A stretch of 64,000 nucleotides of DNA from Enterobacteria phage T6, in the sequence record MH550421, one strand, 5' to 3'. The notes beneath the pieces are model-generated. The model saw only the letters and a program-made list of their open reading frames with translations. It ran no database searches and was not told where the DNA came from. The translations under genes were made by a program, and so were the position numbers. Shown here piece by piece: positions 7,811-32,808 of the stretch. The stretch's first letter is position 1; each line of letters opens with the position of its first letter.

Positions 7811-9094
7811 ATGGCTAAAATCAACGAACTTCTGCGCGAATCAACCACAACGAATAGCAACTCAATCGGTCGCCCAAATCTCGTTGCTTTGACTCGCGCT
7901 ACCACTAAATTAATATATTCTGACATTGTAGCAACGCAAAGAACTAATCAACCTGTTGCTGCTTTTTATGGTATCAAATACCTTAATCCAGATAACGAAT
8001 TTACATTTAAAACTGGTGCTACTTACGCTGGCGAAGCTGGATACGTAGACCGAGAACAAATCACAGAATTAACAGAAGAGTCTAAATTAACTCTCAATAA
8101 AGGCGATTTATTCAAATATAATAATATCGTTTATAAAGTATTAGAAAATACACCATTTGCTGATATTGAAGAAAGCGATTTAGAATTAGCTCTTCAAATT
8201 GCAATCGTTCTTTTAAAGGTTCGTCTATTTTCTGATGCTGCAGTAACAAGCAAATTTGAAAGCTCTGATAGTGAAATTGCGGATGCTAGATTCCAGATTA
8301 ATAAATGGCAAACCGCAGTTAAATCTCGTAAACTTAAAACTGGCATCACAGTTGAATTAGCACAAGATTTAGAAGCAAACGGATTCGATGCTCCTAATTT
8401 CTTGGAAGATTTGCTTGCAACTGAAATGGCGGATGAAATCAATAAAGATATTTTGCAGTCTTTGATTACAGTGTCAAAACGCTATAAAGTTACAGGAATT
8501 ACTGATACTGGATTCATTGATTTGAGTTATGCATCTGCACCTGAAGCTGGTCGTTCATTATACCGAATGGTATGCGAAATGGTTTCACATATCCAGAAAG
8601 AATCAACTTATACAGCAACGTTCTGTGTTGCTTCAGCTCGTGCCGCTGCGATTCTTGCTGCATCAGGTTGGTTAAAACATAAACCGGAAGATGATAAATA
8701 TCTTTCACAAAATGCCTACGGGTTCTTAGCTAATGGTTTACCGCTTTATTGCGATACCAACAGCCCATTAGATTATGTAATCGTTGGCGTAGTAGAAAAT
8801 ATCGGTGAAAAAGAAATTGTTGGATCAATTTTCTATGCTCCGTATACAGAAGGTCTTGACTTAGATGACCCTGAACATGTAGGTGCATTTAAAGTTGTAG
8901 TTGATCCAGAAAGTTTGCAGCCATCTATCGGTTTATTAGTTAGATATGCTTTATCTGCAAATCCTTACACTGTAGCAAAAGATGAAAAAGAAGCAAGAAT
9001 AATTGATGGTGGAGACATGGATAAAATGGCGGGTCGTTCAGATTTGTCTGTTTTATTAGGTGTTAAGCTACCAAAAATTATCATTGATGAATAA
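7811..9094 (+). CDS. 24: Capsid vertex protein gp24
   Basis: 427 aa, gp23 paralog; conserved position. Confidence 0.95.
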   Translation: MAKINELLRESTTTNSNSIGRPNLVALTRATTKLIYSDIVATQRTNQPVAAFYGIKYLNPDNEFTFKTGATYAGEAGYVDREQITELTEESKLTLNKGDLFKYNNIVYKVLENTPFADIEESDLELALQIAIVLLKVRLFSDAAVTSKFESSDSEIADARFQINKWQTAVKSRKLKTGITVELAQDLEANGFDAPNFLEDLLATEMADEINKDILQSLITVSKRYKVTGITDTGFIDLSYASAPEAGRSLYRMVCEMVSHIQKESTYTATFCVASARAAAILAASGWLKHKPEDDKYLSQNAYGFLANGLPLYCDTNSPLDYVIVGVVENIGEKEIVGSIFYAPYTEGLDLDDPEHVGAFKVVVDPESLQPSIGLLVRYALSANPYTVAKDEKEARIIDGGDMDKMAGRSDLSVLLGVKLPKIIIDE

Positions 9095-9100
9095 AACAAA

Positions 9101-9121
9101 GGGACCTTTCGGTCCCTTTTT
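9101..9121 (+). terminator. Intrinsic terminator after gene 24
   Basis: GGGACC-UUUC-GGUCCC hairpin followed by UUUUU. Confidence 0.75.
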
Positions 9122-9123
9122 AT

Positions 9124-10128
9124 TTAACTTACCAATTCAATCCAAGCCGGACGAAGTACATCTTGTACCATTTTAACTAATTCCTTCTTAATCAAAGACG
9201 GATTATCCGCTTGAGTTAGAGTAATACCTTCACGAGAAGTTTCTTCCAAAATATCTTGAACAGTTAGTCCCATCACCTTTCCAAAATCCTTTGGACCAAT
9301 TTCGCCAATTTTAGAAATAACGTTATTTACTCGGTTCAGTGTAACGTAACAAGCTAAAATTCCAACCAATTTGTTATCAGCTTCTGACAGTTCAACTTTA
9401 GCTTTAATAGGCTTATCAGACTTTTTCTTTTCACTAAATTTAGAGTTCTTGCATTTGATGGCTACACGATTGCGATTAGGCAGCCAAGAAGGATAACAAG
9501 GTTTCAATACATATCCTTCAGCGGTAAATACTTCGCCTTTTGCTTCAGCATTCCAAACGCATTTATTTGCATCAACTAATCCAGCATGGTCTACCGTAAA
9601 ATTATAATCCTGTACGACAGAATCTAAATCATTTGGCAATTTAATCAGCTCTTCAAATTTACCGCGACCTAAAAGTGGAGCCATTTTAAATTTAAACGTA
9701 TTACAGAATGATTCCATCATATAATCATCGACATAAGTTACATCACCACTTTCTGTAGTAACAATAATGTCAAATACATAAAAATCTTTATCACCATAAT
9801 CGACATTCTTCTGAATGCCAGGTCCAGCGAATTCGCCAAAGACTTGATAAGATACAACCGCTGAAGTTTCCATAATATCTTGTACTGCTTTAATGGAATC
9901 AGCGTAATTCTTCAAAATAATTTCATACCCAAAGAAATCTTCAGCAGGAAGAATAGGACCAGTGCGTTTAGCACAAGTTACTTTATCACGCTCAATAATC
10001 AATGAGAAATTTGTGCCATGAATCTTTTCACGAGCTACCCATTCGCCGCCAGTCAATCCTAAACTGTAAAGTTTTTCAATAAATTTAGAGTTGTAATGAT
10101 TTTCAAGACTGCTATACTTTTTAAACAT
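9124..10128 (-). CDS. rnlB: RNA ligase 2 (RnlB)
   Basis: 334 aa; KIHGTNFS nucleotidyltransferase lysine motif; [20 protein letters not shown]... as T4 Rnl2. Confidence 0.9.
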
Positions 10129-10137
10129 AATTAATCC

Positions 10138-10416
10138 TCAAAATGTAATTTCTAACCAATCACCATCACGCTGATCACTATTAACTTTAAAGCTGAATCC
10201 TTCTTTTCTCAGCCAATCACCAATTTCTTCAGTAATCAATTTATCACGAGCAGTACAATAATAACTAAAATATGTTTTACCTTGTTCAGCTGCTTTATTA
10301 GCAAGTTCCGAAAAATCTTTAATAAAACACTCTAGCTTAAACTGTTTGCTTTTAAGTGCTTTTTCGCGTAATTGATTAGCAAAAGATTCATTTTCATAAA
10401 GATCATACTGTTCCAT
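10138..10416 (-). CDS. Hypothetical protein (24.2-like)
   Basis: 92-aa ORF in conserved position between rnlB and hoc. Confidence 0.55.
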   Translation of the reverse strand: MEQYDLYENESFANQLREKALKSKQFKLECFIKDFSELANKAAEQGKTYFSYYCTARDKLITEEIGDWLRKEGFSFKVNSDQRDGDWLEITF

Positions 10417-10618
10417 TTTTCACCTTTTTATTAATATGTCTTTTTCTATAGACAACTTTTTCTCGAGTTTCAAATTTATTCTTAGCAGTCATAGCTCGAG
10501 CCCATAATACAGCCACTTCTTTTGCCTGTAAGTTTAATTCACGAGCAATTTCAATGAATGACTTTCCAGACTCATGAAGAGTAAACACCACAACCTCAGT
10601 TCTCATAATCAATCTCAT
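10403..10618 (-). CDS. Hypothetical protein (24.3-like)
   Basis: 71-aa ORF overlapping upstream gene by 14 nt; conserved position. Confidence 0.5.
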   Translation of the reverse strand: MRLIMRTEVVVFTLHESGKSFIEIARELNLQAKEVAVLWARAMTAKNKFETREKVVYRKRHINKKVKNGTV

Positions 10619-10680
10619 GTTATCGAGTTGGTGCCATTATATACATCATTTTCTGATTGTGTTTTACGTGCTTTCAAAAT

Positions 10681-10701
10681 GAAGAAAGGGGCCGAAGCCC
10701 C
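10681..10701 (-). terminator. Intrinsic terminator after hoc (minus strand)
   Basis: GGGGC-UUCG-GCCCC hairpin followed by UUUCUUC on minus-strand transcript. Confidence 0.6.
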
Positions 10702-10707
10702 TTATGA

Positions 10708-11839
10708 TTATGGATAGGTATAGATGATACCAGTTTCTAAAGCAGTTTTATGAATGATGTATCCATTACGTGATTCTTGAACATCAACTTCTGGATAGTC
10801 TTTCATCATCTTCTGAAGAGTGTAACGATGCAGGTAGTATTTACTATCTGGATCTTCAGTTTTCCAATCTTTACCTTCTTCAGTCATTTTTTGAATTTCA
10901 TCCATAACCCACCAACCGCACCAGATGTAAGCTGAAGTACGATGTGGAAGAGGATGAACATAAGGTAATTCACCTTCTGGTTCTGGAGCAACTTTATCAG
11001 TTACCTGAACTTGACCTTCTGCTGTAATAGTTTTGCTATCATAATCAGTAGCAGTAACGACGGCAGTCACTTCAATAGTTTGACTTCCAATAGATGAGGT
11101 ATCAACGGTATATACATTAGTTGACCCTTCTACAGGAGAAGAATCTTTCTTCCATGAATACGCAATTTGCGCTTCTTCTGGAGCATCAGTAACATTAGCA
11201 GTAAATGTAGCCGAAGCATCTTGTTGAACGTTAATAGAAGGAGGAGTCAATGTAACCTGTGGATTCATTGTCTTCTTATTAACCGTTAATGATACTTCAT
11301 TAGAAGTAACTTCCTTTTCATTGTAATTTTCTGCAGTTACTTGGGCTACGCATTTAATTCTTTTTAACTCCACTTGTAGTTGGAGTGTAATTGAATGTAG
11401 CGGAAGTTGCTTCGTCCACAGGAGAACCGTCAACGTACCACTGATATGTGGCGTTTGCGCCCGATGGCTGCGAAGCTAAAGTAGCGGTAAATTCAACAGC
11501 TGTTCCGATTACTCCAGCATCAGGGCTACCAGGAGTTACGGCTAAAGTAGTTGTTTGTGTCTTATTTTGAACTGTGATAGTTGTACTAATTTCAGCTGTT
11601 TCGGGACTACTATCGGCAACTTGATTTGTTGCAACTACTTTAATAGTCTTTTGACCGGCAGGTCCTTTTAGTACATAACTAAAAGTTGCTGACGTTTCTT
11701 CCTGTGGAACATCGTCTACAGTCCAAGCATAGGTAATAGTTCCACCTCCAGTTTCACCACTGGGTGTAGCAGTAAACTGCTTAGTTTCATCAATAACCCC
11801 TGTTGGTGTTTTAGGAGTTATATCAACTGTAAAAGCCAT
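10708..11839 (-). pseudogene. hoc: Outer capsid protein Hoc, reading frame interrupted by 1-nt insertion in a homopolymer run
   Basis: Track ORFs 11354..11839 and 10708..11433 are in different frames; joined at ...TTSGVK/RIKCVAQ... they give 376 aa, the T4 Hoc length; frameshift in T5 run near 11361-11365. Confidence 0.8.
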
Positions 11840-11848
11840 AAGTTATCC

Positions 11849-12529
11849 TTATTTTAATGTTACGAAAGAAGAATTACGTGTTTCACGAATTAGAACTGAT
11901 CCGTCGCGATTAATGTAATAAATTAAGCTAAATAAAGTTTGGTGTGCCGACGCATGTTCAAAACTAGTTGGTTGAGATTTCCAATCCGGAGTTTCAGCGA
12001 TCCATTGATAAATCCACCAAGGAACAGTGCAGAATCCTGGATTTTTTCCAATCAGCTGAAGATTCGGACTAAAGTTTTCCGGAAGAGTAAATACAGACGG
12101 CTTTTCAGATTCAATAATCTCAGCTACAGCCTGTTCGAATTTTTCTTCAACAAAAGGAGTATCTTCAATCAAAACTGAGGTATTTTCAGGAATTTTATCA
12201 GTTTCTACTACTTCAATTTTAATGTCAGATTTAATCGGAGAATCAATCAGAAGTGCTGCTTCTGGATTGACTTCTTCATCGTCATATTTTAATCCCTCTG
12301 CGGCATCAGCAGCATCAATTAAGTCTTTAATAGATAACCCATCAGTCTCTGGCATAGGTTCACTAGCGAGCTTCTGGAGGGCTTCTTCAATATCATTAAC
12401 GATATTATCAAAAGATTTATTCTTTTTGACCTTTATACCAAACTGTTCAGCATATTCAGCTAATTTAGCTTTAGCTTCTTTGTTATCATCAAGAGCCTTC
12501 AGCTCTGCAATATAATCTTTATCTATCAT
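11849..12529 (-). CDS. inh: Inhibitor of prohead protease (Inh)
   Basis: 226 aa, same length and position as T4 Inh. Confidence 0.8.
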   Translation of the reverse strand: MIDKDYIAELKALDDNKEAKAKLAEYAEQFGIKVKKNKSFDNIVNDIEEALQKLASEPMPETDGLSIKDLIDAADAAEGLKYDDEEVNPEAALLIDSPIKSDIKIEVVETDKIPENTSVLIEDTPFVEEKFEQAVAEIIESEKPSVFTLPENFSPNLQLIGKNPGFCTVPWWIYQWIAETPDWKSQPTSFEHASAHQTLFSLIYYINRDGSVLIRETRNSSFVTLK

Positions 12530-23921: not shown

Positions 23922-23925
23922 CAAT

Positions 23926-23943
23926 GGGGACCGAAAGGTCCCC
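23926..23943. terminator. Bidirectional stem-loop between convergent genes 54 and the alt-distal ORF
   Basis: GGGGACC-GAAA-GGUCCCC hairpin flanked by A/T runs on both sides. Confidence 0.6.
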
Positions 23944-23949
23944 ATATTT

Positions 23950-24240
23950 TTATTTACGGAATGAAATGAAAGCAGAAACTGAAGCAACTAAACTGTCTTC
24001 AATATAAACTTCAATTTTTACCGGAGCTTCTGACTCAAATTTACCTGTTACTACACCCTGAAAAATACTTTCAGTTTGTTCTGGCTTTGAAAAATTTTCA
24101 GAAGGAAAAATTCCGAACTTTTTATCTGTTCCAAAAATTTTAATAAATTCATCGTAAACTGCTTCATTAAAAGCATTATCAGCAGGAATAACGCCTTCAA
24201 CTACAAGTTCTTGACCTAAAAAGCGCAAAGAAGATTTCAT
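23950..24240 (-). CDS. Hypothetical protein (alt.-3-like)
   Basis: 96-aa ORF downstream of Alt paralogs; GAGGAA Shine-Dalgarno. Confidence 0.5.
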   Translation of the reverse strand: MKSSLRFLGQELVVEGVIPADNAFNEAVYDEFIKIFGTDKKFGIFPSENFSKPEQTESIFQGVVTGKFESEAPVKIEVYIEDSLVASVSAFISFRK

Positions 24241-24301
24241 TTTGTGTTCCTCATGTTATGTCAGTAAGACTATTATAACACAACATAAGGAACTTGTAAA
24301 C
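24241..24301 (-). promoter_or_regulatory. Candidate early promoter (GTTTACA-N17-TATAAT) with leader for the alt.-3-like gene
   Basis: Minus strand GTTTACAAGTTCCTTATGTTGTGTTATAATAGTCTTACTGACATAACATGAGGAACACAAAATG; matches T4 early promoter consensus. Confidence 0.55.
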
Positions 24302-26358
24302 TACATTTTGAACTTTTTAGACATTCCGTTGATGTTAACCAAAGAAGCTAAGATTTGAGAAACTTCGTTTTCCTCTTCTTTTGATTCTTCTACAAGGAAT
24401 TGATTAAATCCAGTCATTGGACGAACTTCACCAGTTTCCATTAGATGGTCTCCATCATATACTGATTCTTCTAATTGTTCAGAAGGAGGAACGATTGTAC
24501 CTTCGATTAGATACTTGTTATAAGCAGTTTCTTTCATAAAGTACGTACTTACTTTATTAATCTTCAGTAAAATTCCACGCGGTAGAATAACTTCAGCTTC
24601 TGATGGAAATCCTGTTAAATGACCTGGAACGATAACTTTGATTCGCTCAGCTCCTTTAATTACCATACCCACGCTAGTTTCAGCATCTTCATTAGCATAT
24701 GTAGAATGACTACCCATATGCATCAAATCTTCTGCATCAACAGAACCTTCTCCTTCGCCAGAAAATACTTCACCGGAATCATCTAGAGCCATATAGTTTT
24801 TACCATGCTCACCGAAGATATTCGGTTTAAGCGATGTAGATACGAAGTTCTTGAAATAGAACATTTTGTTTTCAATGTTATGACGCAAAGTTTTAAAGGT
24901 AACTTCTTGTCCACGATAAAGCGTAGTTCCTGGAGGAAGAACTGAACCTTTAGCGAATGCAGAATCCAACGTCTCGATGTGCTTAATGGCACGTTCCATA
25001 TATTCTTCACGGGTAGAATCTGGTTTACCCAAAAGGAACGAGTTCATTTCAACATATGAATCTGCACAATAATCTTCAATTACATCAGATTCAGCTTGAG
25101 TTAATCCTTTTGGAGTTACTTCAGTACTTGCATATTCATACGCCTGAGCAGCAGATTCATTAATCAATTTATAAATGCCATTCATTACAAATTGAATAAT
25201 AGCTGTCTTTTCATCTGGCGTGGCTTTAGAACCTTTAACTAAATCATTAATAATTTTCTTAATAACATCAAAGCTATTAGAAATATTAATGTCAGCAAGA
25301 TCGCTTAAAATTTTATCAGTTTTATAATCAAAGAATTCTTTATTCTTTAAATATTCTTGAGAACCTTGATATGTTATATCGCTCTGCAGCTTGATAGATG
25401 GATCACGTAAACGCGCATGGGCCAATGCGATATGATTTCGGAAGTTTTCTAGTTCATAATCGCTAGATTTAAAACGAGAAGCACTCCTCATACCACCGAT
25501 AGCTCCTTTGCCGAAGTTTGAACCAATCTGGATAACGCCAGAGTTCATCGGACCTTCTGCTTTATATACCGGAACTTTAGATTCAAACTCTTGATATTTC
25601 TTGGCAGCGAAGCTATCACCCTGAAGTGAAGCATCAACAGTAGAATATTGAGCTTGTGCTGCTAATCGACGACTAATTTTAGTTTTCTGAATAACAGCTT
25701 GGTCCGTGCGCTTATCATTTTCTAAAGCAATAGAAGCAGCAACAGCGACAGCTTTAGGAACAGCATTACCTGTTTTAACGTCTACATAAACATCACCAAC
25801 CTTTGATTCAACTTTTGTGAATAACTCAGTTGAAATAGGAGGTACACCTGGAATGTCTTCTAAATTGGCATTTTTACGGTAAACCATAATATATGCGTAC
25901 TTTTTATCATAATCCCAGATTTCCTTTAAAAGAACATATCGACCTGCTCCTTTAATACGTACTAAACGGTCAGCAATAACTTGCATTTGACGAGCAGCGC
26001 CATTTGTTTTACTTTTTAGTACGCGGAATAAGCATGCGTCGATTTTATACTGTTTCATTGTTTGAAGAGCAGTATCAAAAACAGCATTAATGACGCCAAT
26101 TGGATTTCCACCCAAGTTTTTAAGCTTGACTAACGATAATTTCTCGTTGACACCTATCATTACGATATGCATCATTTTATCGCCTGGCTTAACGTTTTTA
26201 TTTGTATCACCGCCAGAGGTGTATGTACAAAATCTAAATCCAGGAAGCACACTTTCTTCGCCGGCTTGAATAGCAAAAATTTGTGGTATTTTATGCTTAG
26301 GATTTAAGTTAACAACCGGCGCCGAAGCGCCGTCAAATAATTCTGTAATAAGTTCCAT
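24301..26358 (-). CDS. Alt-family mono-ADP-ribosyltransferase paralog
   Basis: 685 aa; N-terminal about 230 aa colinear with the adjacent Alt (MELITELFD..., KIDAC..., RYVLLKE.WDYDKKYAYI); C-terminal R/S/E-x-E motifs (YRGQ, FVSTSL, SEAEVILPRG). Confidence 0.75.
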   Translation of the reverse strand: MELITELFDGASAPVVNLNPKHKIPQIFAIQAGEESVLPGFRFCTYTSGGDTNKNVKPGDKMMHIVMIGVNEKLSLVKLKNLGGNPIGVINAVFDTALQTMKQYKIDACLFRVLKSKTNGAARQMQVIADRLVRIKGAGRYVLLKEIWDYDKKYAYIMVYRKNANLEDIPGVPPISTELFTKVESKVGDVYVDVKTGNAVPKAVAVAASIALENDKRTDQAVIQKTKISRRLAAQAQYSTVDASLQGDSFAAKKYQEFESKVPVYKAEGPMNSGVIQIGSNFGKGAIGGMRSASRFKSSDYELENFRNHIALAHARLRDPSIKLQSDITYQGSQEYLKNKEFFDYKTDKILSDLADINISNSFDVIKKIINDLVKGSKATPDEKTAIIQFVMNGIYKLINESAAQAYEYASTEVTPKGLTQAESDVIEDYCADSYVEMNSFLLGKPDSTREEYMERAIKHIETLDSAFAKGSVLPPGTTLYRGQEVTFKTLRHNIENKMFYFKNFVSTSLKPNIFGEHGKNYMALDDSGEVFSGEGEGSVDAEDLMHMGSHSTYANEDAETSVGMVIKGAERIKVIVPGHLTGFPSEAEVILPRGILLKINKVSTYFMKETAYNKYLIEGTIVPPSEQLEESVYDGDHLMETGEVRPMTGFNQFLVEESKEEENEVSQILASLVNINGMSKKFKM

Positions 26359-26361
26359 GAT

Positions 26362-28455
26362 TTATCCTTGAACGAACTTGTAAGGCATGTTTGTAATATC
26401 TATGCAAGACGCAATAATTCCAAGAGATGATTCTACTTTCTGTTTAACATTTGATGAAACAAATGATGCAAAGTCAACTCTGTCTTCTATTTCAATATCA
26501 CCTGTCATTGCAACTACTTCACCGGTTTCCATTAAACAGTCTCCGTCATAGATTACCGATTCGGTGAGTTCTTCTGTGGTCATAACTTCAGCTTGAATGA
26601 GTTTTGTATTGTTAGATGTTGTTCCATCATTATTAGAAGCATCAGTTATTTTATTAACTTTGACCATTAATCCGCGCGGTAGAATAACTTCAGCTTCTGT
26701 TGCTATTCCGAGACTTCCTGGATATACAACATTAACTTTATGAGCTCCATCAATTGCCCATCCTATTTGAACTTTAACGTATTCAGGATTTTCTTTATAC
26801 GCTCTTATTTCGTTTGGATTAATAGTTATTCCTTCTTCATTTTTATCAACTGTTAATTCATTGCGAGCTTCTGGTTCTAAAAGACCAATACCAGCATGTG
26901 TAATTCCAAAACGTCCAAAAATGATAGGAGTTAAAGAAGTAGATACAAAATTTCTGAAATAGAATACTTTATTTTTAACTAGCGCTTCGTATATAGGAGC
27001 AGTCATACTTTGAGCACGATAAACTGTAATGCCTTCCGGTATGCGGTCACCATTTTCAAAAGCTGAATCTAAATTATTTATAGCAGATTCAATTTCTTTT
27101 TCACTCATTACATCATATCGTTCTGGATTGTAACGACCTAAAAGAAGATTATTAATGTCTGTATATCCTGAACCACAATACTCTCTAATACCGCGCTTTT
27201 GCGATGGAGTATATTTAGAACCATCACGGGCAATAGTAATATCAATCATTGGGCCTGCACCAATTCCAGAAAAACTATAAATCATTCGTTTGAGGAATTT
27301 AGTTTTTGCTGCATTCCAGGCATTTTTAGTTATTTCTCCCCAGACTTCATCTGGTTGCCCTTTACGAGTTTTATTATGTTTATCAAGCCAATTATCTTTA
27401 TATTCTTCAAAGAATTGATTGACAGCTGCTGCGTATTTCTCTAAACATTTTATTGAAGTAGTTGGTTCATTTTTGATCGCATTAAGAATTACATCTTTAA
27501 TTTTTTCGGAAACTTCATTAACCTCACTTTTTGAAAAGAATTTATAGTCATAGTGAAGTTCATTCGCAGTTCCTTCGGCAATAATTTTTGCTGCCTTAGT
27601 TTTAGAAGCTAATGAATTAATTCCAAGCTTCATTTCTTCTGCTTCGGGAATTAAAGGAGCAGTAGCAGGTTTATTGAAATTAGCTGCGGTAGATTCATAC
27701 TTCTGGAATAATTCACTTTCAAATCTAGAAGATTCCAATGACTGACTTTGTGCAATTGCTCTACGGGAAATTTTAACTTTAACGATTACAGCTTGGTCAG
27801 AACGTTTATCATTTTCTTGTGCAATAGATGCTGCAATTGCCTCATTTTTAGTTACTTGAGCTCCAGTATCTTTATTGATATAAACATCACCGACCTTCGA
27901 TTCAACCTTAGTAAAGAGCTCGGTACTAATTTCCGGAACTCCTGGAATGTCTTCTAGTGATACATTTTTGCGATGTATAAGAATATATGCATACTTTTTA
28001 TCATAATCCCAGAGTTCCTTAAGAAGGACGTATCTTCCACCTGAACGACTACGGATAAGTCTATCAGCAATAACTTGAATTTGTCGAGCTTGGCCAGCAG
28101 TTTTAGACTTAAGAATACGAAGCATGCAGGCATCAATTTTATACTGACGCATTGTTTGCATTGCAACAGTAAAAACTGAATTGATATAATTAATTGGGCT
28201 TGGTCCAAGACCTTTTAATTTAGCAATTGAACCTTTAGCAGTTAATGTAAAAGGAACAATATGCATCATTTTATCGCCCATTTTTAAATCGCGATTAGTA
28301 TCACCTCCGGATGTATAGGTACATAAACGAAAGCCTGGTTGTTCAATTGCATCATCAACATGAACTGAAAAAATTTGCGGTATTTTCTTCTTTGGATTTA
28401 AGTTTGTAATTGGAAGAGTAGTATCTTCGTCAAATAATTCTGTAATGAGTTCCAT
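26362..28455 (-). CDS. alt: Alt ADP-ribosyltransferase (packaged internal head protein)
   Basis: 697 aa from second Met; MELITELFDEDTTLPITNLNPKKKIPQIF...; ART motifs YRAQ, FVSTSL, TEAEVILPRG; directly downstream of gene 30. Confidence 0.85.
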   Translation of the reverse strand: MELITELFDEDTTLPITNLNPKKKIPQIFSVHVDDAIEQPGFRLCTYTSGGDTNRDLKMGDKMMHIVPFTLTAKGSIAKLKGLGPSPINYINSVFTVAMQTMRQYKIDACMLRILKSKTAGQARQIQVIADRLIRSRSGGRYVLLKELWDYDKKYAYILIHRKNVSLEDIPGVPEISTELFTKVESKVGDVYINKDTGAQVTKNEAIAASIAQENDKRSDQAVIVKVKISRRAIAQSQSLESSRFESELFQKYESTAANFNKPATAPLIPEAEEMKLGINSLASKTKAAKIIAEGTANELHYDYKFFSKSEVNEVSEKIKDVILNAIKNEPTTSIKCLEKYAAAVNQFFEEYKDNWLDKHNKTRKGQPDEVWGEITKNAWNAAKTKFLKRMIYSFSGIGAGPMIDITIARDGSKYTPSQKRGIREYCGSGYTDINNLLLGRYNPERYDVMSEKEIESAINNLDSAFENGDRIPEGITVYRAQSMTAPIYEALVKNKVFYFRNFVSTSLTPIIFGRFGITHAGIGLLEPEARNELTVDKNEEGITINPNEIRAYKENPEYVKVQIGWAIDGAHKVNVVYPGSLGIATEAEVILPRGLMVKVNKITDASNNDGTTSNNTKLIQAEVMTTEELTESVIYDGDCLMETGEVVAMTGDIEIEDRVDFASFVSSNVKQKVESSLGIIASCIDITNMPYKFVQG

Positions 28456-28478
28456 CATATCCTCTCTAGTGTTTATTC

Positions 28479-28486
28479 TATTTATA
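28479..28486 (-). promoter_or_regulatory. Candidate late promoter for alt
   Basis: TATAAATA on minus strand about 20 nt upstream of alt start. Confidence 0.55.
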
Positions 28487-28492
28487 AAATTA

Positions 28493-28508
28493 AAGGCCCG
28501 AAGGCCTT
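28493..28508 (-). terminator. Stem-loop AAGGCC-CGAA-GGCCUU upstream of alt late promoter
   Basis: 6-bp stem overlapping stop of upstream 62-aa ORF, followed by A/U-rich tract. Confidence 0.45.
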
Positions 28509-28696
28509 TAATAATCTAGTGGTAAGAGAGTACGGTATATTTCAAACTTTGGACCTTTTTCATAGGCATCAAATGTTTCTGTAAATTTATTATAAGCATA
28601 TGCATCTACAAATTCGAGAACGACTTGTGATACAGAAGTAGAAACATCTCCACCTTCTTTTTGAGCTACGACAACTGTTTCTAAGTAAGCTTTCAT
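28508..28696 (-). CDS. Hypothetical small protein between gene 30 and alt
   Basis: 62-aa ORF, start overlaps gene 30 stop. Confidence 0.45.
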   Translation of the reverse strand: MKAYLETVVVAQKEGGDVSTSVSQVVLEFVDAYAYNKFTETFDAYEKGPKFEIYRTLLPLDY

Positions 28697-30156
28697 AGAC
28701 CAGTTACCTCATGAAAATCACCAAATACATCTTCGAATGTATTAGCTTTAGTTTTATCTTCACGCAAACGAATCGCAATTGGAAGAAATAATTTAACGTA
28801 ATCAGTGCGGCCATCAGATTTTAACCAACCGTTGCATTCGCACTCTAGAATTTTTCCAATATAATAATTTTGGTTTTCCATAATGCGAGTACGGTCAAGT
28901 TCATGTGATTTTACGCCGGCTTTATCTTTTAAGCCTGAACCAGCATTTACCTTAATTTTTCCACACTCTGACTCAAGAATAAATCCACCTGCTTTAGTAG
29001 GGTCTTTACGGTGAGGATAAATTCCTACAATTTTTAAATCAACATCAATTACTTCTTTAAATTTATAGAGATTTTTCGAACGAGCATTTTCCCATAATCC
29101 ATCGATATTTTTGAGAATAATACCTTCAAGACCTTGGTCAATATACTTTTTATAAATTACCTTAGCTTCATCTAGGTTATTTACTACCTGGTTTTCAATT
29201 AAAATTACTTTATCATAGCCTGATGTCATTTGTTCTAATTTAGAAAAACGTACATCATATTTCAAGCGAAATGCTGGAAGACCGTATACTTCTACCAACG
29301 GGACATAATCCCAGACCTGAAACTTCATGCATTGTGCTTCTTTTTCAGAAATGGTTCCCTTTAAAGATTTATTGGCGATGCCATTAGATGCAGTACGTGA
29401 TTCAGCTACTTCTGTGAAGTCTTTAACTTTACTGTTTTCAGGATGAGCATCAAAAAGAAAATCTAGGCCTTCTGGCTCCTTTTTAACTTGCTCATGGTAT
29501 ACCAATTCGCCATCAATTAACACGCCTTCTGGATGAATCTGGCGAGCTTCAGCGGTCATTTTGATTAACTCTTCTTTAAGAAGATCTAATCCTAGATATT
29601 CATTACCAGCTCGTGATAAAAGACGAACATCATCTAATTCATCACCTCTGACTTCAGCAAAGCACCGAGCCCCATCAGCTTTTAACTGGGCAAAGGCTGG
29701 AAATTTAATATTCTTATTAATGCCTTTTTCATCATAAGAACTTGCAAGCATTTGAGGTTGTTCAGGAATTAAACCTGGCCAAACTTTGTTTGCAATAGAT
29801 ACCGAAGCACCGCATTCAAGGTCTCGCATCATCACTCGACGCAAAACTTCAACATCATCTTTTTTACCATCGGTGATGTATCCAGTTAATTCCTCAATTG
29901 CCGCATTTCCAGTCAATTTCCGAGTAGCTAACGTGAATTCAATGAAGTCAAGCATATCAGTAAGAGTCAACATTCCAAAACTCTGGGTAGCAATACCAGG
30001 TTTAGGCCATTTCTTGATATAATACTGTAACCCACGAGAATAAGTCAGACGATATACCCGTTTAAGCAATTCATTATCTTTATTCTTTTCAAGAATTGCT
30101 TGTTTTTGTTTAGTTGAACCAATAGATGCTATTTCGTTCAGAATTTTAAGAATCAT
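28693..30156 (-). CDS. 30: ATP-dependent DNA ligase gp30
   Basis: 487 aa; MILKILNEIASIGSTKQKQAILEKNKDNELLKRVYRLTYSRGLQYY...; adenylation motif KADGAR. Confidence 0.95.
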   Translation of the reverse strand: MILKILNEIASIGSTKQKQAILEKNKDNELLKRVYRLTYSRGLQYYIKKWPKPGIATQSFGMLTLTDMLDFIEFTLATRKLTGNAAIEELTGYITDGKKDDVEVLRRVMMRDLECGASVSIANKVWPGLIPEQPQMLASSYDEKGINKNIKFPAFAQLKADGARCFAEVRGDELDDVRLLSRAGNEYLGLDLLKEELIKMTAEARQIHPEGVLIDGELVYHEQVKKEPEGLDFLFDAHPENSKVKDFTEVAESRTASNGIANKSLKGTISEKEAQCMKFQVWDYVPLVEVYGLPAFRLKYDVRFSKLEQMTSGYDKVILIENQVVNNLDEAKVIYKKYIDQGLEGIILKNIDGLWENARSKNLYKFKEVIDVDLKIVGIYPHRKDPTKAGGFILESECGKIKVNAGSGLKDKAGVKSHELDRTRIMENQNYYIGKILECECNGWLKSDGRTDYVKLFLPIAIRLREDKTKANTFEDVFGDFHEVTGL

Positions 30157-30422
30157 TATTCATCCTTTAGAGTTTGGTTTACAGCTCTATTATAAATCAA
30201 TTCATCATTAAGCTCAGTCAAAGACCTGTGGTACGTGGTTCTAACTTTATTTCCTTGCATCCAGTGCTTGACGTAAATGAAACCTTGCTCTACACATTTT
30301 TTAAAAATTCGTTCGTCTTTTTGAGCTCGGAATTCTGGATTGCATCTAAAAAATTGATTTACGTGACCGTAATCACGTGTAGTATTACCTTCATTTTCAT
30401 AAATAGTGTGAACGACAAACAT
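30156..30422 (-). CDS. Hypothetical protein (30.1-like)
   Basis: 88-aa ORF, start overlaps next gene stop. Confidence 0.5.
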   Translation of the reverse strand: MFVVHTIYENEGNTTRDYGHVNQFFRCNPEFRAQKDERIFKKCVEQGFIYVKHWMQGNKVRTTYHRSLTELNDELIYNRAVNQTLKDE

Positions 30423-31267
30423 TAGAATGCTCCTTGGAAAATATTATCACCACAAGTAGGTCTATTATACAAATACTCTATGCCACCGGGTTTAATATAG
30501 TTCCATGTCTGAAACGGATGCGTCTGATATGGATGATATGGATGATATAGATTATAAGGATTAAATCCAGGAGTTCTCCAGGTAGTGTTCCAAGGAAAAG
30601 AATCGTTTTTAATCATCTTTTCAATTACATCTTTTATAGCTTTTTCACTATCAAAACTTTCTTTATTTTCCTTTGGTGAAAAAAGCTTATTCTCTACATC
30701 ATTCCATGTATAAACTCGCTGAGCAGTTTTTGGAATATTGTCACGCTCCCCTCGAGCCATCCAATAAACAGGAACACTTAATATTTCACTCGCATGATCG
30801 CAGTGGTGAGCGAGATCGTCGATATAACAAATTACGTTATATTTCTCTTTTGCCTTTTTGAACAACTCTTCTTTTGAAGAATCGTGACCACACATCATTA
30901 CTTCTGAGAAGGCACCAGGAAAAAGAGCATTCAAATTAAATTGACGATTCAACAGAGCGTCAATAGAATCACCCAATGCTGTAACAGCTACAAAATTATA
31001 ATATTCTTTTAATTTGTTAATTACACACAGAGCATCTTTGTATGGAGACAAGTAACGAATAAAATCTGAACGATTGTATTTTTCAATTAACTTGACGCCA
31101 AGTTCTTCATCACAATTAAAGAGTTTACCTGGAGAAATAAATTTCTCATCTTGGATCATTTTTAAAATATGTTCTAACGGAAGATTATATTTCTGAGCAA
31201 AATAAGGAAGGCCTGATTGCCAGCTTAAACATACTCCATCAATATCAGTTAAAATAGTAGGCTTCAT
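30422..31267 (-). CDS. HAD-superfamily phosphatase-like protein (30.2-like)
   Basis: 281 aa; N-terminal ILTDIDGV (DxDx[TV] motif I), later VAVTA and ICYIDD motifs. Confidence 0.5.
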   Translation of the reverse strand: MKPTILTDIDGVCLSWQSGLPYFAQKYNLPLEHILKMIQDEKFISPGKLFNCDEELGVKLIEKYNRSDFIRYLSPYKDALCVINKLKEYYNFVAVTALGDSIDALLNRQFNLNALFPGAFSEVMMCGHDSSKEELFKKAKEKYNVICYIDDLAHHCDHASEILSVPVYWMARGERDNIPKTAQRVYTWNDVENKLFSPKENKESFDSEKAIKDVIEKMIKNDSFPWNTTWRTPGFNPYNLYHPYHPYQTHPFQTWNYIKPGGIEYLYNRPTCGDNIFQGAF

Positions 31268-31722
31268 AGAGAGTCTCTTAATAGGTTTAACACATCAATA
31301 AATTCAGCTTCGGTTAGTATTGTATCATCTTTTGTTAGACCACTAGCCATGCTGTGCTTCAAAACTTTTCCTTTCGAGGCTTGTAATGCATCACGAAAGC
31401 CCTTGTTTTGGATCGCTGCTTCAAAATATGCATTTGTGTATAATTCTTTCCACGCCGGGGAATATCTTGAAAATGGAACTCCAAGCCAGAAGAGGGTCCC
31501 ACGGTCCTGAGCTCTAGCATAAGACCTTCCAGCTTGTTGAGCGGCAAGCCCGGATAACCCAAATATACGACGTTGTTGTTCAACATTTTTCACCTTGCAC
31601 CCTTGAAGGAATCCTTCTAGACCTCCAAATTGAATACCATCCATAACGAAAGGCCAATGGGCGAAATTACTTAATGCACATGATGGCCACCTAAAATTAC
31701 TTCTAATCTCTAACTCAGACAT
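31264..31722 (-). CDS. NADAR/YbiA-like (DUF1768) protein (30.3-like)
   Basis: About 152 aa from ATG at 31722; LSNFAHWPFVMDG and LEGFLQGCKV resemble E. coli YbiA FSNFAAWPIKVDG / SEHYFQAQKF by eye. Confidence 0.5.
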   Translation of the reverse strand: MSELEIRSNFRWPSCALSNFAHWPFVMDGIQFGGLEGFLQGCKVKNVEQQRRIFGLSGLAAQQAGRSYARAQDRGTLFWLGVPFSRYSPAWKELYTNAYFEAAIQNKGFRDALQASKGKVLKHSMASGLTKDDTILTEAEFIDVLNLLRDSL

Positions 31723-31921
31723 TTTCAATGCTTATAATTTCAACATCAGCCCAATGACCATAGCAAGGAAGACGAAATTCAACTGGCCAGTTAGGGTCCT
31801 TTTCTAATATAATAGACTTAACTTGTGGTTCTTCGTGTTCATCAGTATATGGATTTTTATCTGTTACTTTATATGTGACCTTAATGTACTGAATTCCAAA
31901 AATCTTATTAATTATATTCAT
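31715..31921 (-). CDS. Hypothetical small protein
   Basis: 68-aa ORF in 30.x cluster. Confidence 0.45.
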   Translation of the reverse strand: MNIINKIFGIQYIKVTYKVTDKNPYTDEHEEPQVKSIILEKDPNWPVEFRLPCYGHWADVEIISIENV

Positions 31922-32115
31922 ACTAATTCCTTTAATCCGTAAATAGGAGATAATTCATCACCCATACGAAGGTCTTCATTTCCATCTACCCAGGAAACAA
32001 TATAAGCCTCTTTTACTTGAACATCTCCCAATTTAAATGCGGGTAAAACCTTAGAAATTAATCCAGGTATACCAACTCCCTTTAATTCAACAGTTTGGCC
32101 TAAAAAGAATTTCAT
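31918..32115 (-). CDS. Hypothetical small protein
   Basis: 65-aa ORF; overlapping stop/start with neighbours. Confidence 0.45.
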   Translation of the reverse strand: MKFFLGQTVELKGVGIPGLISKVLPAFKLGDVQVKEAYIVSWVDGNEDLRMGDELSPIYGLKELV

Positions 32116-32402
32116 TAAAACCTCATCTGAAAGCCGTGTGATTTAACATTACCACCGCCAATATCAGAAATGTTAATTTCACGCGCAATTGAAGGGTCAA
32201 TGTCAATTTCGCGATTGAGTTTAGTGATAGCTAAAGTATCGCGCCCATTTACAGTACGAAACTCTAAAGGACAAACCACATCAACGTAGTTTTTAATCGA
32301 TTCGCTAGTAGGTTGCAAATGTGCAGGAAGGTCTTTAGGTGCCTTTGAGAAAACCACTTCACAAAAATTTTTGCGGGTATCAAAATAAGTAGTCATAAAC
32401 AT
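32115..32402 (-). CDS. Hypothetical protein
   Basis: Track ORF 32115..32453; start moved to ATG at 32402 (MFMTTY...) with GAGGA Shine-Dalgarno, leaving hairpin 32419-32434 intergenic. Confidence 0.45.
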   Translation of the reverse strand: MFMTTYFDTRKNFCEVVFSKAPKDLPAHLQPTSESIKNYVDVVCPLEFRTVNGRDTLAITKLNREIDIDPSIAREINISDIGGGNVKSHGFQMRF

Positions 32403-32442
32403 AATATTTTCCTCAGTAAGGGGCCGAAACCCCTCATTTATT

Positions 32443-32808
32443 TTAAATATCAAATTCGTTAAGAACTACATCAAAGATTGCTTCCAAGTGCTCAGGTTTA
32501 GCTCTGTTACTCAGAATATGACGAATCCAAGTTTTAACTAAGAGTTTACGATTAGCACCATTCCAGCAAGGATGAGTCCCTAAATCGCGTTCACGAAAAT
32601 CATCATCCAGAGCGATTTTAAAGTTGGAACCTTCCATTGTGATTGAAACCGTGATACCGTTTTCAAATCGCATATAAACGTAGTTAGGAGTCATATACTG
32701 TTCAATTTCGCATACTGATCCATTTTGATGTTTCCAAAGGCAGATGGTATCAATAGAACCTGCAATACCATTAGAAACATATTTACGTTCAAAGTTGATG
32801 TAGTTCAT
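32443..32808 (-). CDS. Hypothetical protein
   Basis: Track start 32820 is TTG; ATG at 32808 (MNYINFERKY...) with GGAG Shine-Dalgarno. Confidence 0.5.
   Translation of the reverse strand: MNYINFERKYVSNGIAGSIDTICLWKHQNGSVCEIEQYMTPNYVYMRFENGITVSITMEGSNFKIALDDDFRERDLGTHPCWNGANRKLLVKTWIRHILSNRAKPEHLEAIFDVVLNEFDI

What the first reader, a model, noticed from the sequence alone, without database searches (positions are those of the whole stretch)
24301..28455. Two tandem Alt-family ADP-ribosyltransferase genes
Adjacent minus-strand ORFs of 685 and 697 aa share a near-colinear N-terminal region of about 230 aa (MELITELFD..., RYVLLKE.WDYDKKYAYI..., EDIPGVP.ISTELFTKVESKVGDVY), the part that in Alt mediates head packaging. 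Both keep C-terminal R-S-ExE catalytic signatures (YRGQ/YRAQ, FVSTSL, EAEVILPRG), but their central and target-recognition regions are divergent. This suggests two packaged, injected ART effectors with different host targets. I cannot verify from memory whether reference T-even genomes carry an intact second copy at this position.
Basis: partly seen in the sequence, partly recalled or inferred. Interest (0 to 1): 0.55.

Follow-up and report, generated by a model that had tools for sequence, protein, structure and literature searches.

The report
Phage T6 alt and its paralogue
The window is phage T6, and the two ORFs are its already-annotated pair of Alt-type ADP-ribosyltransferase genes; most T4-like coliphages keep the second gene intact, T4 itself has deleted it, and nobody has tested what it does.

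Summary
The window is 100% identical to Enterobacteria phage T6. Two minus-strand ORFs, 26362-28455 (697 aa, alt) and 24301-26358 (685 aa, called alt.-2 in RB32), are colinear paralogues. They are 67% identical over the N-terminal ~238 aa, ~10% in the middle domain and 36% in the ART domain. Both keep the R / S-T-S / E-x-E motifs, which align to the catalytic residues of solved C3/iota/CDTa toxins.

The pair is not new. RefSeq names both genes 'Alt-like RNA polymerase ADP-ribosyltransferase', a 2006 paper recognised T4 alt.-1/alt.-2 as alt paralogues, and a 2026 paper proposes the same functional-divergence idea.

What I add:
- The second copy is intact in at least 401 phage records and under strong purifying selection (dN/dS ~0.05).
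- T4 lost it through a 1,699-bp deletion between two 9-bp repeats, leaving alt.-1/alt.-2. Phage sutha lost it independently.
- Both prohead-protease sites mapped in T4 Alt (ITE-6 and LTE-619) are conserved in both T6 copies.
- One late promoter precedes the pair.
- The ART domains are exchanged between genera, while the N-domains stay lineage-specific.

Packaging, injection and distinct targets for copy B are likely but untested. Interest is low to moderate.

The parts
28492..28509 (-). Stem-loop AAAGGCCTTCGGGCCTTT followed by a T-run. It is the likely terminator of the upstream alt.1/gene 30 unit.
   Evidence: Read directly from the sequence. The homologous site is annotated as a terminator in phage G28. 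Nolan 2006 reports a conserved terminator upstream of alt. The consensus scan did not list it.
28479..28486 (-). T4-type late promoter TATAAATA, 23 nt upstream of the alt start codon.
   Evidence: the motif occurs 18 times in the window against 8.3 expected. Position read. No such motif lies between the two alt genes.
26362..28455 (-). Copy A, the alt orthologue (T6-type allele), 697 aa. Layout: propeptide 1-6; N-domain 7-239; helical middle 240-412; ART 413-628 with R480, S505/S507 and E587/E589; LTE-632 cleavage motif; acidic C-propeptide 633-697.
24301..26358 (-). Copy B, the alt paralogue (alt.-2 of RB32), 685 aa. Layout: propeptide 1-6; N-domain 7-238; helical middle 239-415; ART 416-625 with R482, S507/S509 and E587/E589; LEE-631 cleavage motif; acidic C-propeptide 632-685. 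It starts 3 nt after the stop of A, with an AAGGA Shine-Dalgarno inside the end of A.
25645..26340 (-). Alt-specific N-terminal domain of copy B (database Pfam PF26846). The equivalent region in copy A is 27739-28437.
24484..25113 (-). ART catalytic domain of copy B. Codons: R482 at 24913-24915, S507 at 24838-24840, S509 at 24832-24834, E587 at 24598-24600, E589 at 24592-24594.
26572..27219 (-). ART catalytic domain of copy A. Codons: R480 at 27016-27018, S505 at 26941-26943, S507 at 26935-26937, E587 at 26695-26697, E589 at 26689-26691.
26011..26019 (-). Upstream copy of the 9-bp direct repeat CTAAAAAGT (codons 114-116 of copy B). It is the left end of the deletion that removed copy B from T4.
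24312..24320 (-). Downstream copy of CTAAAAAGT, near the stop of copy B. It is the right end of the 1,699-bp T4 deletion.
24272..24300 (-). Strong sigma-70/T4-early-type promoter (TTTACA, 17 nt, TG-TATAAT) directly after the stop of copy B. It drives alt.-3.
   Evidence: 11 of 12 matches plus TG; sequence read.
23950..24240 (-). alt.-3 (96 aa, DUF5498), the downstream neighbour. It is not an ART.
   Evidence: The CmdTAC escape mutations in T4 map to this gene.
23924..23945 (.). Bidirectional terminator between alt.-3 and gene 54. It ends the alt transcription unit.
   Evidence: Annotated as a terminator in G28.
28508..28696 (-). alt.1 (62 aa, Pfam Phage_blade), the upstream neighbour.

Best explanation
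The two ORFs are phage T6's alt gene (copy A) and its tandem paralogue (copy B, alt.-2 in RB32). Both encode three-part proteins: an Alt-specific N-terminal domain, a helical middle domain, and a C3/VIP2-type arginine-specific mono-ADP-ribosyltransferase domain with an R / S-T-S / E-x-E active site.

The proposed mechanism runs as follows.
1. Both genes are transcribed late as one message from the TATAAATA promoter in front of copy A.
2. Both proteins are built into the prohead core.
3. The prohead protease gp21 trims both: after ITE-6, and after LTE-632 in A or LEE-631 in B. This gives mature proteins of about 70 and 69 kDa.
4. Both are injected with the DNA and use host NAD+ to ADP-ribosylate host proteins before any phage gene is expressed.
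5. Because the middle domains (10% identity) and the ART domains (36% identity) have diverged, the two enzymes probably modify different sets of substrates.

The locus is a modular, copy-number-variable array of such effectors. There is one copy plus a remnant in T4, two in T6, T2, RB32 and most Tequatrovirus phages, and three in a Dhakavirus. T4 lost copy B by a microhomology deletion.

Shown here: gene identity, paralogy, intact motifs and fold, purifying selection, promoter layout, conserved cleavage motifs, and the deletion history.
Inferred: translation of copy B, packaging, processing, injection, enzymatic activity, and distinct targets.
For: Identity and annotation:
- The window is 100% identical to T6, and both genes are annotated as Alt-like ARTs. 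RB32 labels copy B alt.-2.
- Both match Pfam PF03496 and PHROG 802 over their full length.

Catalytic residues and fold:
- The R and ExE of copy A align to the catalytic R and ExE of CDTa/iota toxin.
- A B-type profile aligns LYRGQ and EEAEVILPRG to the R and Q/ExE of a C3 exoenzyme and to Lmo0066.
- R482, S507, S509, E587 and E589 are invariant in 17 homologues.
- The AlphaFold model of B (pLDDT 75.8) matches Vis, C3, CDTa, VIP2 and iota toxins with probability 1.0 and target TM-score 0.6-0.7.
- In T4 Alt, mutating the ExE glutamate (E577A) abolishes activity.

Copy B is a working gene:
- It is full-length in at least 401 of 497 matching phage records.
- Its C-terminal two-thirds is 96-100% identical in about 400 records.
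- Mean dN/dS is 0.047 across 9 phages, and every region is below 0.09.

Packaging-type features:
- A late promoter sits at 28479-28486 and none lies between A and B. The gap is 3 nt with an AAGGA Shine-Dalgarno.
- The gp21 sites mapped by mass spectrometry in T4 Alt (ITE-6 and LTE-619) are conserved in A and B of all 9 phages. E6 and E631 are invariant.
- The model is disordered exactly in residues 1-11 and 630-685.

Modularity:
- N-domains are more alike within a genome (63-68%) than between orthologues (42-47%).
- ART domains show cross-genus orthology, 96% for the A type and 57% for the B type.
- The A-type ART has dS = 0.37 against saturated flanking genes.

T4 history:
- The deletion junction lies at a 9-bp repeat, and a 1-nt frameshift splits the remnant.
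- The PHROG families of alt.-1 and alt.-2 map to residues 1-56 and 62-117 of copy B.
Against: - I found no direct evidence that copy B is translated, packaged, cleaved, injected or active. No virion proteomics or biochemistry for it turned up in the searchable literature.
- Copy B has been lost at least twice, in the T4 lineage and in phage sutha. It is therefore dispensable under some conditions.
- Copy B alone gives no phmmer hit to any PDB chain, and its Pfam score is weaker than that of A.
- Divergence alone does not prove different substrates. T4 Alt is itself promiscuous.
Confidence: 0.7

Rival explanations
1. Copy B is an active ART that is not packaged. It would act inside the producing cell late in infection, in the way ModA and ModB act as non-packaged enzymes, for example on host or phage proteins during assembly.
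For: There is no direct evidence of packaging. T4 has non-packaged ARTs (ModA and ModB). Late expression is equally compatible with a late intracellular role.
Against: Copy B keeps the whole Alt-specific N-domain, which is otherwise found essentially only at the N-terminus of Alt-like proteins. It also keeps both gp21 cleavage motifs at the positions used in T4 Alt. Purifying selection is strongest on the N-domain, with dN/dS 0.027.
Confidence: 0.15
2. Copy B is a redundant or decaying duplicate with no function of its own.
For: It has been deleted independently in T4 and in sutha without loss of viability. alt itself is non-essential in T4.
Against: dN/dS is 0.047, with synonymous divergence up to 0.29. 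The gene is intact in at least 401 genomes. All catalytic residues are invariant. A B-type orthologue is retained in the same position in another genus, Dhakavirus E33_3.
Confidence: 0.04
3. Copy B is packaged mainly as a structural or core component, or as a partner of copy A (for example a heteromer that directs A to its target). Its own catalysis would be secondary.
For: Alt is described as a component of the prohead core. The N-domains of paralogues within one genome resemble each other more than they resemble their orthologues. That pattern could reflect a shared binding partner or mutual interaction.
Against: Invariant R-S-ExE residues and a dN/dS of 0.036 on the ART domain argue that catalysis itself is under selection. 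Phage sb2 combines a different A allele (T4-type) with the same B, so B does not need a matched A effector domain.
Confidence: 0.1

Closest known systems
T4 Alt (gp alt), the head-packaged NAD+:arginine mono-ADP-ribosyltransferase that modifies Arg265 of one RNA polymerase alpha subunit along with other host proteins
   Same: Same locus (between alt.1/gene 30 and alt.-3/gene 54). Same three-domain architecture, the same R-S-ExE motifs, a late promoter, and the ITE-6 and LxE-S gp21 cleavage motifs. The N-domain of T6 copy A is 97-100% identical to that of T4 Alt.
   Different: T6 copy A is a different allele. Its middle region is only 15-55% identical to T4 Alt and its ART domain is 66% identical. 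Copy B is further away: 67% in the N-domain, 16% in the middle and 37% in the ART domain. The substrates of neither T6 protein have been determined.
RB32 alt.-2, the RefSeq 'Alt-like RNA polymerase ADP-ribosyltransferase' second copy of T2, RB-series and other Tequatrovirus phages
   Same: This is the same gene as copy B: 95-98% nucleotide identity, the same length and the same position.
   Different: Nothing of substance. The RB32 note calls it an 'apparent insertion in alt.-2'. The junction analysis shows instead that T4 carries a deletion.
T4 ORFs alt.-1 and alt.-2
   Same: They correspond to codons 1-56 and 62-117 of copy B at about 96% nucleotide identity.
   Different: They are remnants. 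A 1-nt deletion splits the reading frame. A 1,699-bp deletion between CTAAAAAGT repeats removes the rest of the gene, including the whole ART domain.
C3-like and binary-toxin ARTs (C3bot, Vis, VIP2, iota Ia, CDTa), the R-S-E clade
   Same: Same ART fold and the same catalytic R, S-T-S and E-x-E motifs.
   Different: Only 14-20% identity. The Alt proteins are delivered from a phage head rather than by secretion or a B-component pore. They carry Alt-specific N-terminal and helical domains, plus an insert of about 70 residues between the STS and ExE motifs.
Three-gene alt array of Dhakavirus (phage vB_EcoM-E33)
   Same: Tandem Alt paralogues at the same locus. E33_2 is the orthologue of copy A (ART 96% identical) and E33_3 is the orthologue of copy B (ART 57%), in the same order.
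   Different: There is an extra first copy with a third ART type, about 38% identical to the others. The N-domains are only 42-47% identical to those of T6.

Membership tests
Alt family (T4-like phage head-packaged ARTs; PHROG 802) | C-terminal ADP-ribosyltransferase domain of the R-S-E clade (Pfam PF03496) with catalytic R, S-T-S and E-x-E | tested here: met
   Both copies exceed the Pfam gathering score. The motifs are invariant. They align to the catalytic residues of solved toxins. The fold match has probability 1.0.
Alt family (T4-like phage head-packaged ARTs; PHROG 802) | Alt-specific N-terminal domain of about 235 aa (PF26846 in the database's precomputed Pfam) | tested here: met
   Copy A is 100% identical and copy B 67% identical to T4 Alt over this domain. 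Hits carry PF26846. Both proteins match PHROG 802 end to end.
Alt family (T4-like phage head-packaged ARTs; PHROG 802) | Genomic position between gene 30/alt.1 and alt.-3/gene 54, on the strand opposite the baseplate genes | tested here: met
Alt family (T4-like phage head-packaged ARTs; PHROG 802) | Late-promoter expression | tested here: met
   TATAAATA lies 23 nt upstream of copy A. Copy B has no promoter of its own and follows after a 3-nt gap, so co-transcription is inferred. This is motif evidence only; no transcript data were examined.
Alt family (T4-like phage head-packaged ARTs; PHROG 802) | gp21 prohead-protease processing at both termini (ITE-6 and LTE-619 in T4 Alt) | tested here: inconclusive
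   The motifs are conserved at homologous positions in both copies of 9 phages, and the corresponding segments of the model are disordered. Actual cleavage of the T6 proteins was not observed.
Alt family (T4-like phage head-packaged ARTs; PHROG 802) | Physical presence in the virion (about 40 copies in T4) and injection with the DNA | not testable with these tools
   This needs virion proteomics or injection assays. I found no such data for copy B in the literature searches.
Alt family (T4-like phage head-packaged ARTs; PHROG 802) | NAD+-dependent ADP-ribosylation of RNA polymerase alpha Arg265 and other host proteins | not testable with these tools
   This is a biochemical property, known only for the T4 allele.
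MuF-fused head-packaged effectors / polyvalent proteins | MuF (or another recognised head-packaging) domain fused to the effector | tested here: not met

The most novel reading that the evidence does not exclude
Two linked ideas remain open.

First, the Alt N-terminal domain may be a lineage-matched module that loads a protein into the phage head, with interchangeable effector domains attached to it. In Tequatrovirus and Dhakavirus the cargo is one of several ART cassettes that move between genera. The A-type ART has dS 0.37 against saturated flanking genes. Fold-level hits in BFVD hint that the same N-domain fold sits in 500-1,280-aa proteins of other large myoviruses, some annotated with zeta-toxin, ParB/Srx or deaminase domains.

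Second, copy B may be a second injected enzyme with a non-RNA-polymerase target, for example a host defence or translation factor. T4-centred work would have missed it because T4 deleted the gene. It could account for part of the host-range and defence-sensitivity differences between T2/T6 and T4.
Probability: 0.3. Interest if true: 0.55.

Novelty: already known. Interest (0 to 1): 0.27.

Why it matters
Almost everything known about injected phage ADP-ribosyltransferases comes from T4. T4 turns out to be the exception here: it has deleted a second Alt-type enzyme that about four-fifths of sequenced relatives keep under strong purifying selection. T6's 'alt' is also a different allele from the T4 enzyme that was characterised biochemically. 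So for most natural T-even phages, the set of host proteins modified in the first seconds of infection is probably wider than the T4 model says. The gene pair itself is already annotated and has been noted in print. The value here is a clear, testable question (what does copy B modify?) and a clean natural knockout (T4) for comparison. It is not a discovery.

Tried and rejected
- phmmer of copy B alone against PDB sequences found nothing. A B-type profile was needed to reach C3-like ARTs.
- NCBIfam has no model for either protein.
- I tested whether the N-domain is fused to non-ART effectors at the sequence level. The search of 1.84 billion representatives gave 69 clusters, all with the domain N-terminal. 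Of 10 sampled, 8 carry PF03496. One of the two without a Pfam hit, P0183, still shows a degenerate ART-like tail. The profile search returned only N-domain fragments. Only fold-level BFVD hits suggest other cargos, and I could not follow them up.
- I considered recent gene conversion between the N-domains of A and B and rejected it. Their dS is saturated at 1.86 and there are no long identical nucleotide tracts.
- I considered that phage IME340 has an insertion in copy B, because the hit came in two pieces. The annotation shows a normal pair, and the second piece was cross-matching to copy A.
- Seven literature searches for functional or proteomic work on the second Alt copy found only genomic remarks.
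- Model coordinates are not exposed to the scripting tool, so I could not measure triad distances.


Full report
**What is there**

The window is Enterobacteria phage T6. The 4,158-bp region is 100% identical to AP018814 and NC_054907. On the minus strand, one search lists ORFs at 24301..26358 (685 aa) and 26362..28458 (698 aa). The annotated start of the upstream gene is the second ATG at 28455, giving 697 aa. That start fits the GAGG Shine-Dalgarno spacing and the published removal of six residues, MELITE, from T4 Alt.

The neighbours are those of the T4 alt locus:
- gp48 and gp54 on the plus strand;
- alt.-3 (DUF5498) downstream;
- alt.1 (Pfam Phage_blade) and DNA ligase gp30 upstream.

I call the upstream gene copy A (alt) and the downstream gene copy B (named alt.-2 in RB32).

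**Checking the observation**

BLASTP of A against B gives 40% identity over the full length, E = 1e-161. Identity differs by region:

| Region | A vs B identity |
|---|---|
| N-terminal residues 7-238 | 67% |
| Middle helical region | ~10% |
| ART domain | 36% |
| C-terminal tail | 44% |

Both proteins exceed the Pfam ADPrib_exo_Tox gathering score and match PHROG 802 ('Alt-like RNA polymerase ADP-ribosyltransferase') from end to end. The quoted motifs are all present:
- A has R480, S505-T-S507 and E587-x-E589.
- B has R482, S507-T-S509 and E587-x-E589.

Several results show these are the catalytic positions:
- Copy A aligns its YRAQ and EAEV to the catalytic Arg and ExE of CDTa and iota toxin.
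- A profile of B-type sequences aligns LYRGQ and EEAEVILPRG to the Arg and Q/ExE of a C3 exoenzyme and of Lmo0066.
- The five residues are invariant in a 17-sequence alignment spanning 43-95% identity.
- An AlphaFold model of B (mean pLDDT 75.8) matches Vis, C3, CDTa, VIP2, iota and Certhrax with Foldseek probability 1.0.
- In T4 Alt, mutating the ExE glutamate (E577A in that paper's numbering) abolishes ADP-ribosylation (PMC11404850).

I could not measure triad distances, because model coordinates are not exposed.

**Is it already known?**

Yes.
- RefSeq names both T6 genes 'Alt-like RNA polymerase ADP-ribosyltransferase'. The same pair is annotated in T2, RB32, RB3, RB27 and many others.
- Nolan et al. 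2006 (PMC1524935) wrote that the T4 ORFs alt.-1 and alt.-2 are paralogous duplications of alt, and that phage 44RR has a full-length duplicate.
- A 2026 genome paper (PMC13600099) describes 'two paralogous Alt-like proteins' sharing 43% identity in a Tequatrovirus and proposes functional divergence.

**Distribution, and the T4 question**

Copy B matches 497 phage records at the DNA level, and 401 of them carry at least 80% of it. Its C-terminal two-thirds is 96-100% identical at the protein level in about 400 records. Identity then drops sharply, to 51% in Dhakavirus and 37% or less elsewhere.

T4 retains only the first ~116 codons, annotated as alt.-1 and alt.-2. Their PHROG families match B residues 1-56 and 62-117. 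Aligning T4 with T6 shows two changes:
- a 1-nt deletion in an A-run, which splits the remnant into two ORFs;
- a 1,699-bp deletion whose junction lies exactly in a 9-bp direct repeat, CTAAAAAGT, present in T6 at 26011-26019 and 24312-24320.

The RB32 note 'apparent insertion in alt.-2' therefore has the direction backwards: T4 carries a deletion.

Phage sutha lost copy B independently. Its 1,940-bp deletion lies between a 12-bp near-repeat, AAGTTCGT(T/C)CAA, and leaves a 38-aa tail ORF.

**Is copy B a working gene?**

Across nine Tequatrovirus genomes the gene is always 685 codons with no internal stop. Mean pairwise dN is 0.009 and dS is 0.19, a ratio of 0.047. The ratio by region is 0.027 for the N-domain, 0.082 for the middle, 0.036 for the ART domain and 0.041 for the tail. 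This excludes a decaying duplicate.

**Expression and processing signals**

- A T4 late promoter, TATAAATA, sits at 28479-28486 on the minus strand. It follows a stem-loop terminator that closes the alt.1 unit.
- No late promoter or terminator lies between A and B. The genes are 3 nt apart, with an AAGGA Shine-Dalgarno inside the end of A. B is therefore most simply the second cistron of a late alt message.
- Directly after the stop of B comes a near-consensus early promoter for alt.-3 (24272-24300). A bidirectional terminator follows at 23924-23945.

Mass spectrometry of T4 heads showed that gp21 cleaves Alt after ITE-6 and after LTE-619, removing 6 and 63 residues (PMC5694885). I located LTE at residues 617-619 of T4 Alt. 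The homologous motifs are ITE-6 and LTE-632 in T6 copy A, and ITE-6 and LEE-631 in copy B. They are conserved in all nine phages, with one B variant reading IIE. E6, E631 and S632 are invariant or nearly so. The model of B is disordered exactly over residues 1-11 and 630-685. The predicted mature proteins are 70.1 kDa (A) and 69.2 kDa (B), and the removed C-propeptides are acidic.

These features are what a head-packaged, processed protein should have. They remain indirect evidence for copy B.

**Modular evolution**

Copy A exists in at least two alleles:
- a T6-type of 697 aa (T6, T2, RB32 and others);
- a T4-type of 682-684 aa (T4 and Shigella phage sb2).

The two share an N-domain that is 97-100% identical. 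The middle is only 15-55% identical, and the ART domain is 66% identical. The biochemistry of T4 Alt therefore cannot simply be transferred even to T6's copy A. Phage sb2 combines the T4-type A with an intact B.

Dhakavirus phage E33 carries three tandem paralogues. By their ART and middle domains, E33_2 is the orthologue of A (ART 96% identical) and E33_3 the orthologue of B (ART 57%), in the same order. The N-domains show the opposite pattern: 63-68% identical within a genome but 42-47% between orthologues.

For calibration, the flanking genes gp48, gp54, alt.-3 and alt.1 are 55-65% identical between the two phages, and their synonymous sites are at or near saturation (dS about 1.0 for the short alt.-3, 1.8 for gp48, not calculable for gp54). 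The A-type ART domain has dS = 0.37. That cassette was therefore exchanged between the genera long after they split.

The N-domains of A and B within T6 have saturated dS (1.86), so recent gene conversion does not explain their similarity. A shared, lineage-specific interaction partner is the more economical reading. The papers I read do not establish this. They speak only of a short targeting sequence and call the role of Alt's two propeptides an open question.

**The N-domain**

- Its model is confident (pLDDT 84.9, pTM 0.83).
- At the sequence level it is rare: 69 clusters among 1.84 billion representatives, always N-terminal in proteins of about 600-710 aa. It is tied to the ART domain in 8 of 10 sampled, and one of the other two, P0183, still has a degenerate ART-like tail.
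- Foldseek against predicted viral structures finds the Alt homologues. It also finds weaker matches (query TM-score about 0.5, 10-16% identity) to long proteins of Ackermannviridae-like and jumbo phages. Some are annotated with zeta-toxin, ParB/Srx or deaminase domains. I could not follow this lead up.

**Most likely mechanism**

Both proteins are made late, incorporated into the prohead core, trimmed by gp21 at both ends, and injected with the DNA. There they use host NAD+ to mono-ADP-ribosylate arginines. The E-x-E motif is the arginine-specific form, and T4 Alt modifies alpha Arg265 and other proteins. With 10% identity in the middle domain and 36% in the ART domain, different substrate sets are likely.

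My estimates:

| Claim | Probability |
|---|---|
| Both are Alt-family ART genes | > 0.95 |
| Copy B is an active enzyme | ~0.85 |
| Copy B is packaged and injected | ~0.65 |
| Its substrates differ substantially from those of copy A | ~0.55 |

**Verdict**

What I add is limited:
- T4 is a microhomology-deletion derivative.
- Copy B is strongly conserved.
- The processing motifs are retained in both copies.
- The locus behaves as a modular array of effectors with variable copy number.

These results sharpen a testable question but do not make the finding novel.

Noticed in passing
window 26362-28455 compared with L003 4851-6899 (T4) and L009 4562-6616 (Shigella phage sb2): T6's own alt (copy A) is a different allele from T4 alt. 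The N-terminal 240 aa are 97-100% identical, but the middle is only 15-55% and the ART domain 66% identical. Phage sb2 carries the T4-type allele together with an intact copy B. Substrate data from T4 Alt may therefore not apply to T6, T2 or RB32 Alt.
   Followed up: partly
L006 244-6356 (Dhakavirus phage vB_EcoM-E33): There are three tandem Alt paralogues (631, 693 and 707 aa) at the same locus. The second carries an ART domain 96% identical to T6 copy A, with dS 0.37 where the flanking genes are at or near saturation. This points to lateral exchange of just the effector cassette between genera.
   Followed up: partly
L005 5001-5117 (phage sutha) compared with window 24428-26368: This is a second, independent loss of copy B. 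A 1,940-bp deletion between a 12-bp near-repeat, AAGTTCGT(T/C)CAA, leaves a 38-aa C-terminal remnant ORF annotated as an 'Alt-like' protein.
   Followed up: yes
window 23950-24300: alt.-3 (DUF5498, 96 aa) has its own near-consensus early promoter directly after the stop of copy B. In T4, C-terminal extensions of Alt.-3 are the escape mutations against the CmdTAC defence system (PMC11618068). The remnant T4 alt.-2 ORF reads through into this promoter region.
   Followed up: no
window 27075-27082 (minus strand): A second exact TATAAATA lies inside copy A, upstream of its ART domain. It may be a chance match (8.3 expected per window) or an internal late promoter that would boost transcription of copy B.
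   Followed up: no
L001 (NC_054907 T6 RefSeq) 8208-12158, corresponding to about window 28508-32455: Several small ORFs downstream of the ligase gene (the gene 30.x region) carry implausible RefSeq product names. Examples are 'siderophore-interacting protein' for alt.1 (62 aa), 'terminase large subunit' for a 95-aa ORF, 'prohead core protein' and 'head vertex protein'. These look like errors of automated annotation transfer.
   Followed up: no
BFVD hits to the N-domain model: The Alt N-terminal domain fold gives Foldseek probability-1.0 matches (query TM-score about 0.5) to long uncharacterised proteins of Erwinia, Dickeya, Shigella (MK-13), Vibrio and Agrobacterium (Atu_ph07) phages. Some are annotated with zeta-toxin, ParB/Srx or deaminase domains. 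The fold may be a shared head-delivery module for diverse effectors.
   Followed up: partly
P0184 (541 aa, metagenomic): This protein has an Alt-type N-domain (residues ~3-162) followed by a C-terminal region with no Pfam or PHROG ART match and no obvious R-S-ExE motif. It is a candidate for a non-ART cargo on the Alt N-domain.
   Followed up: no
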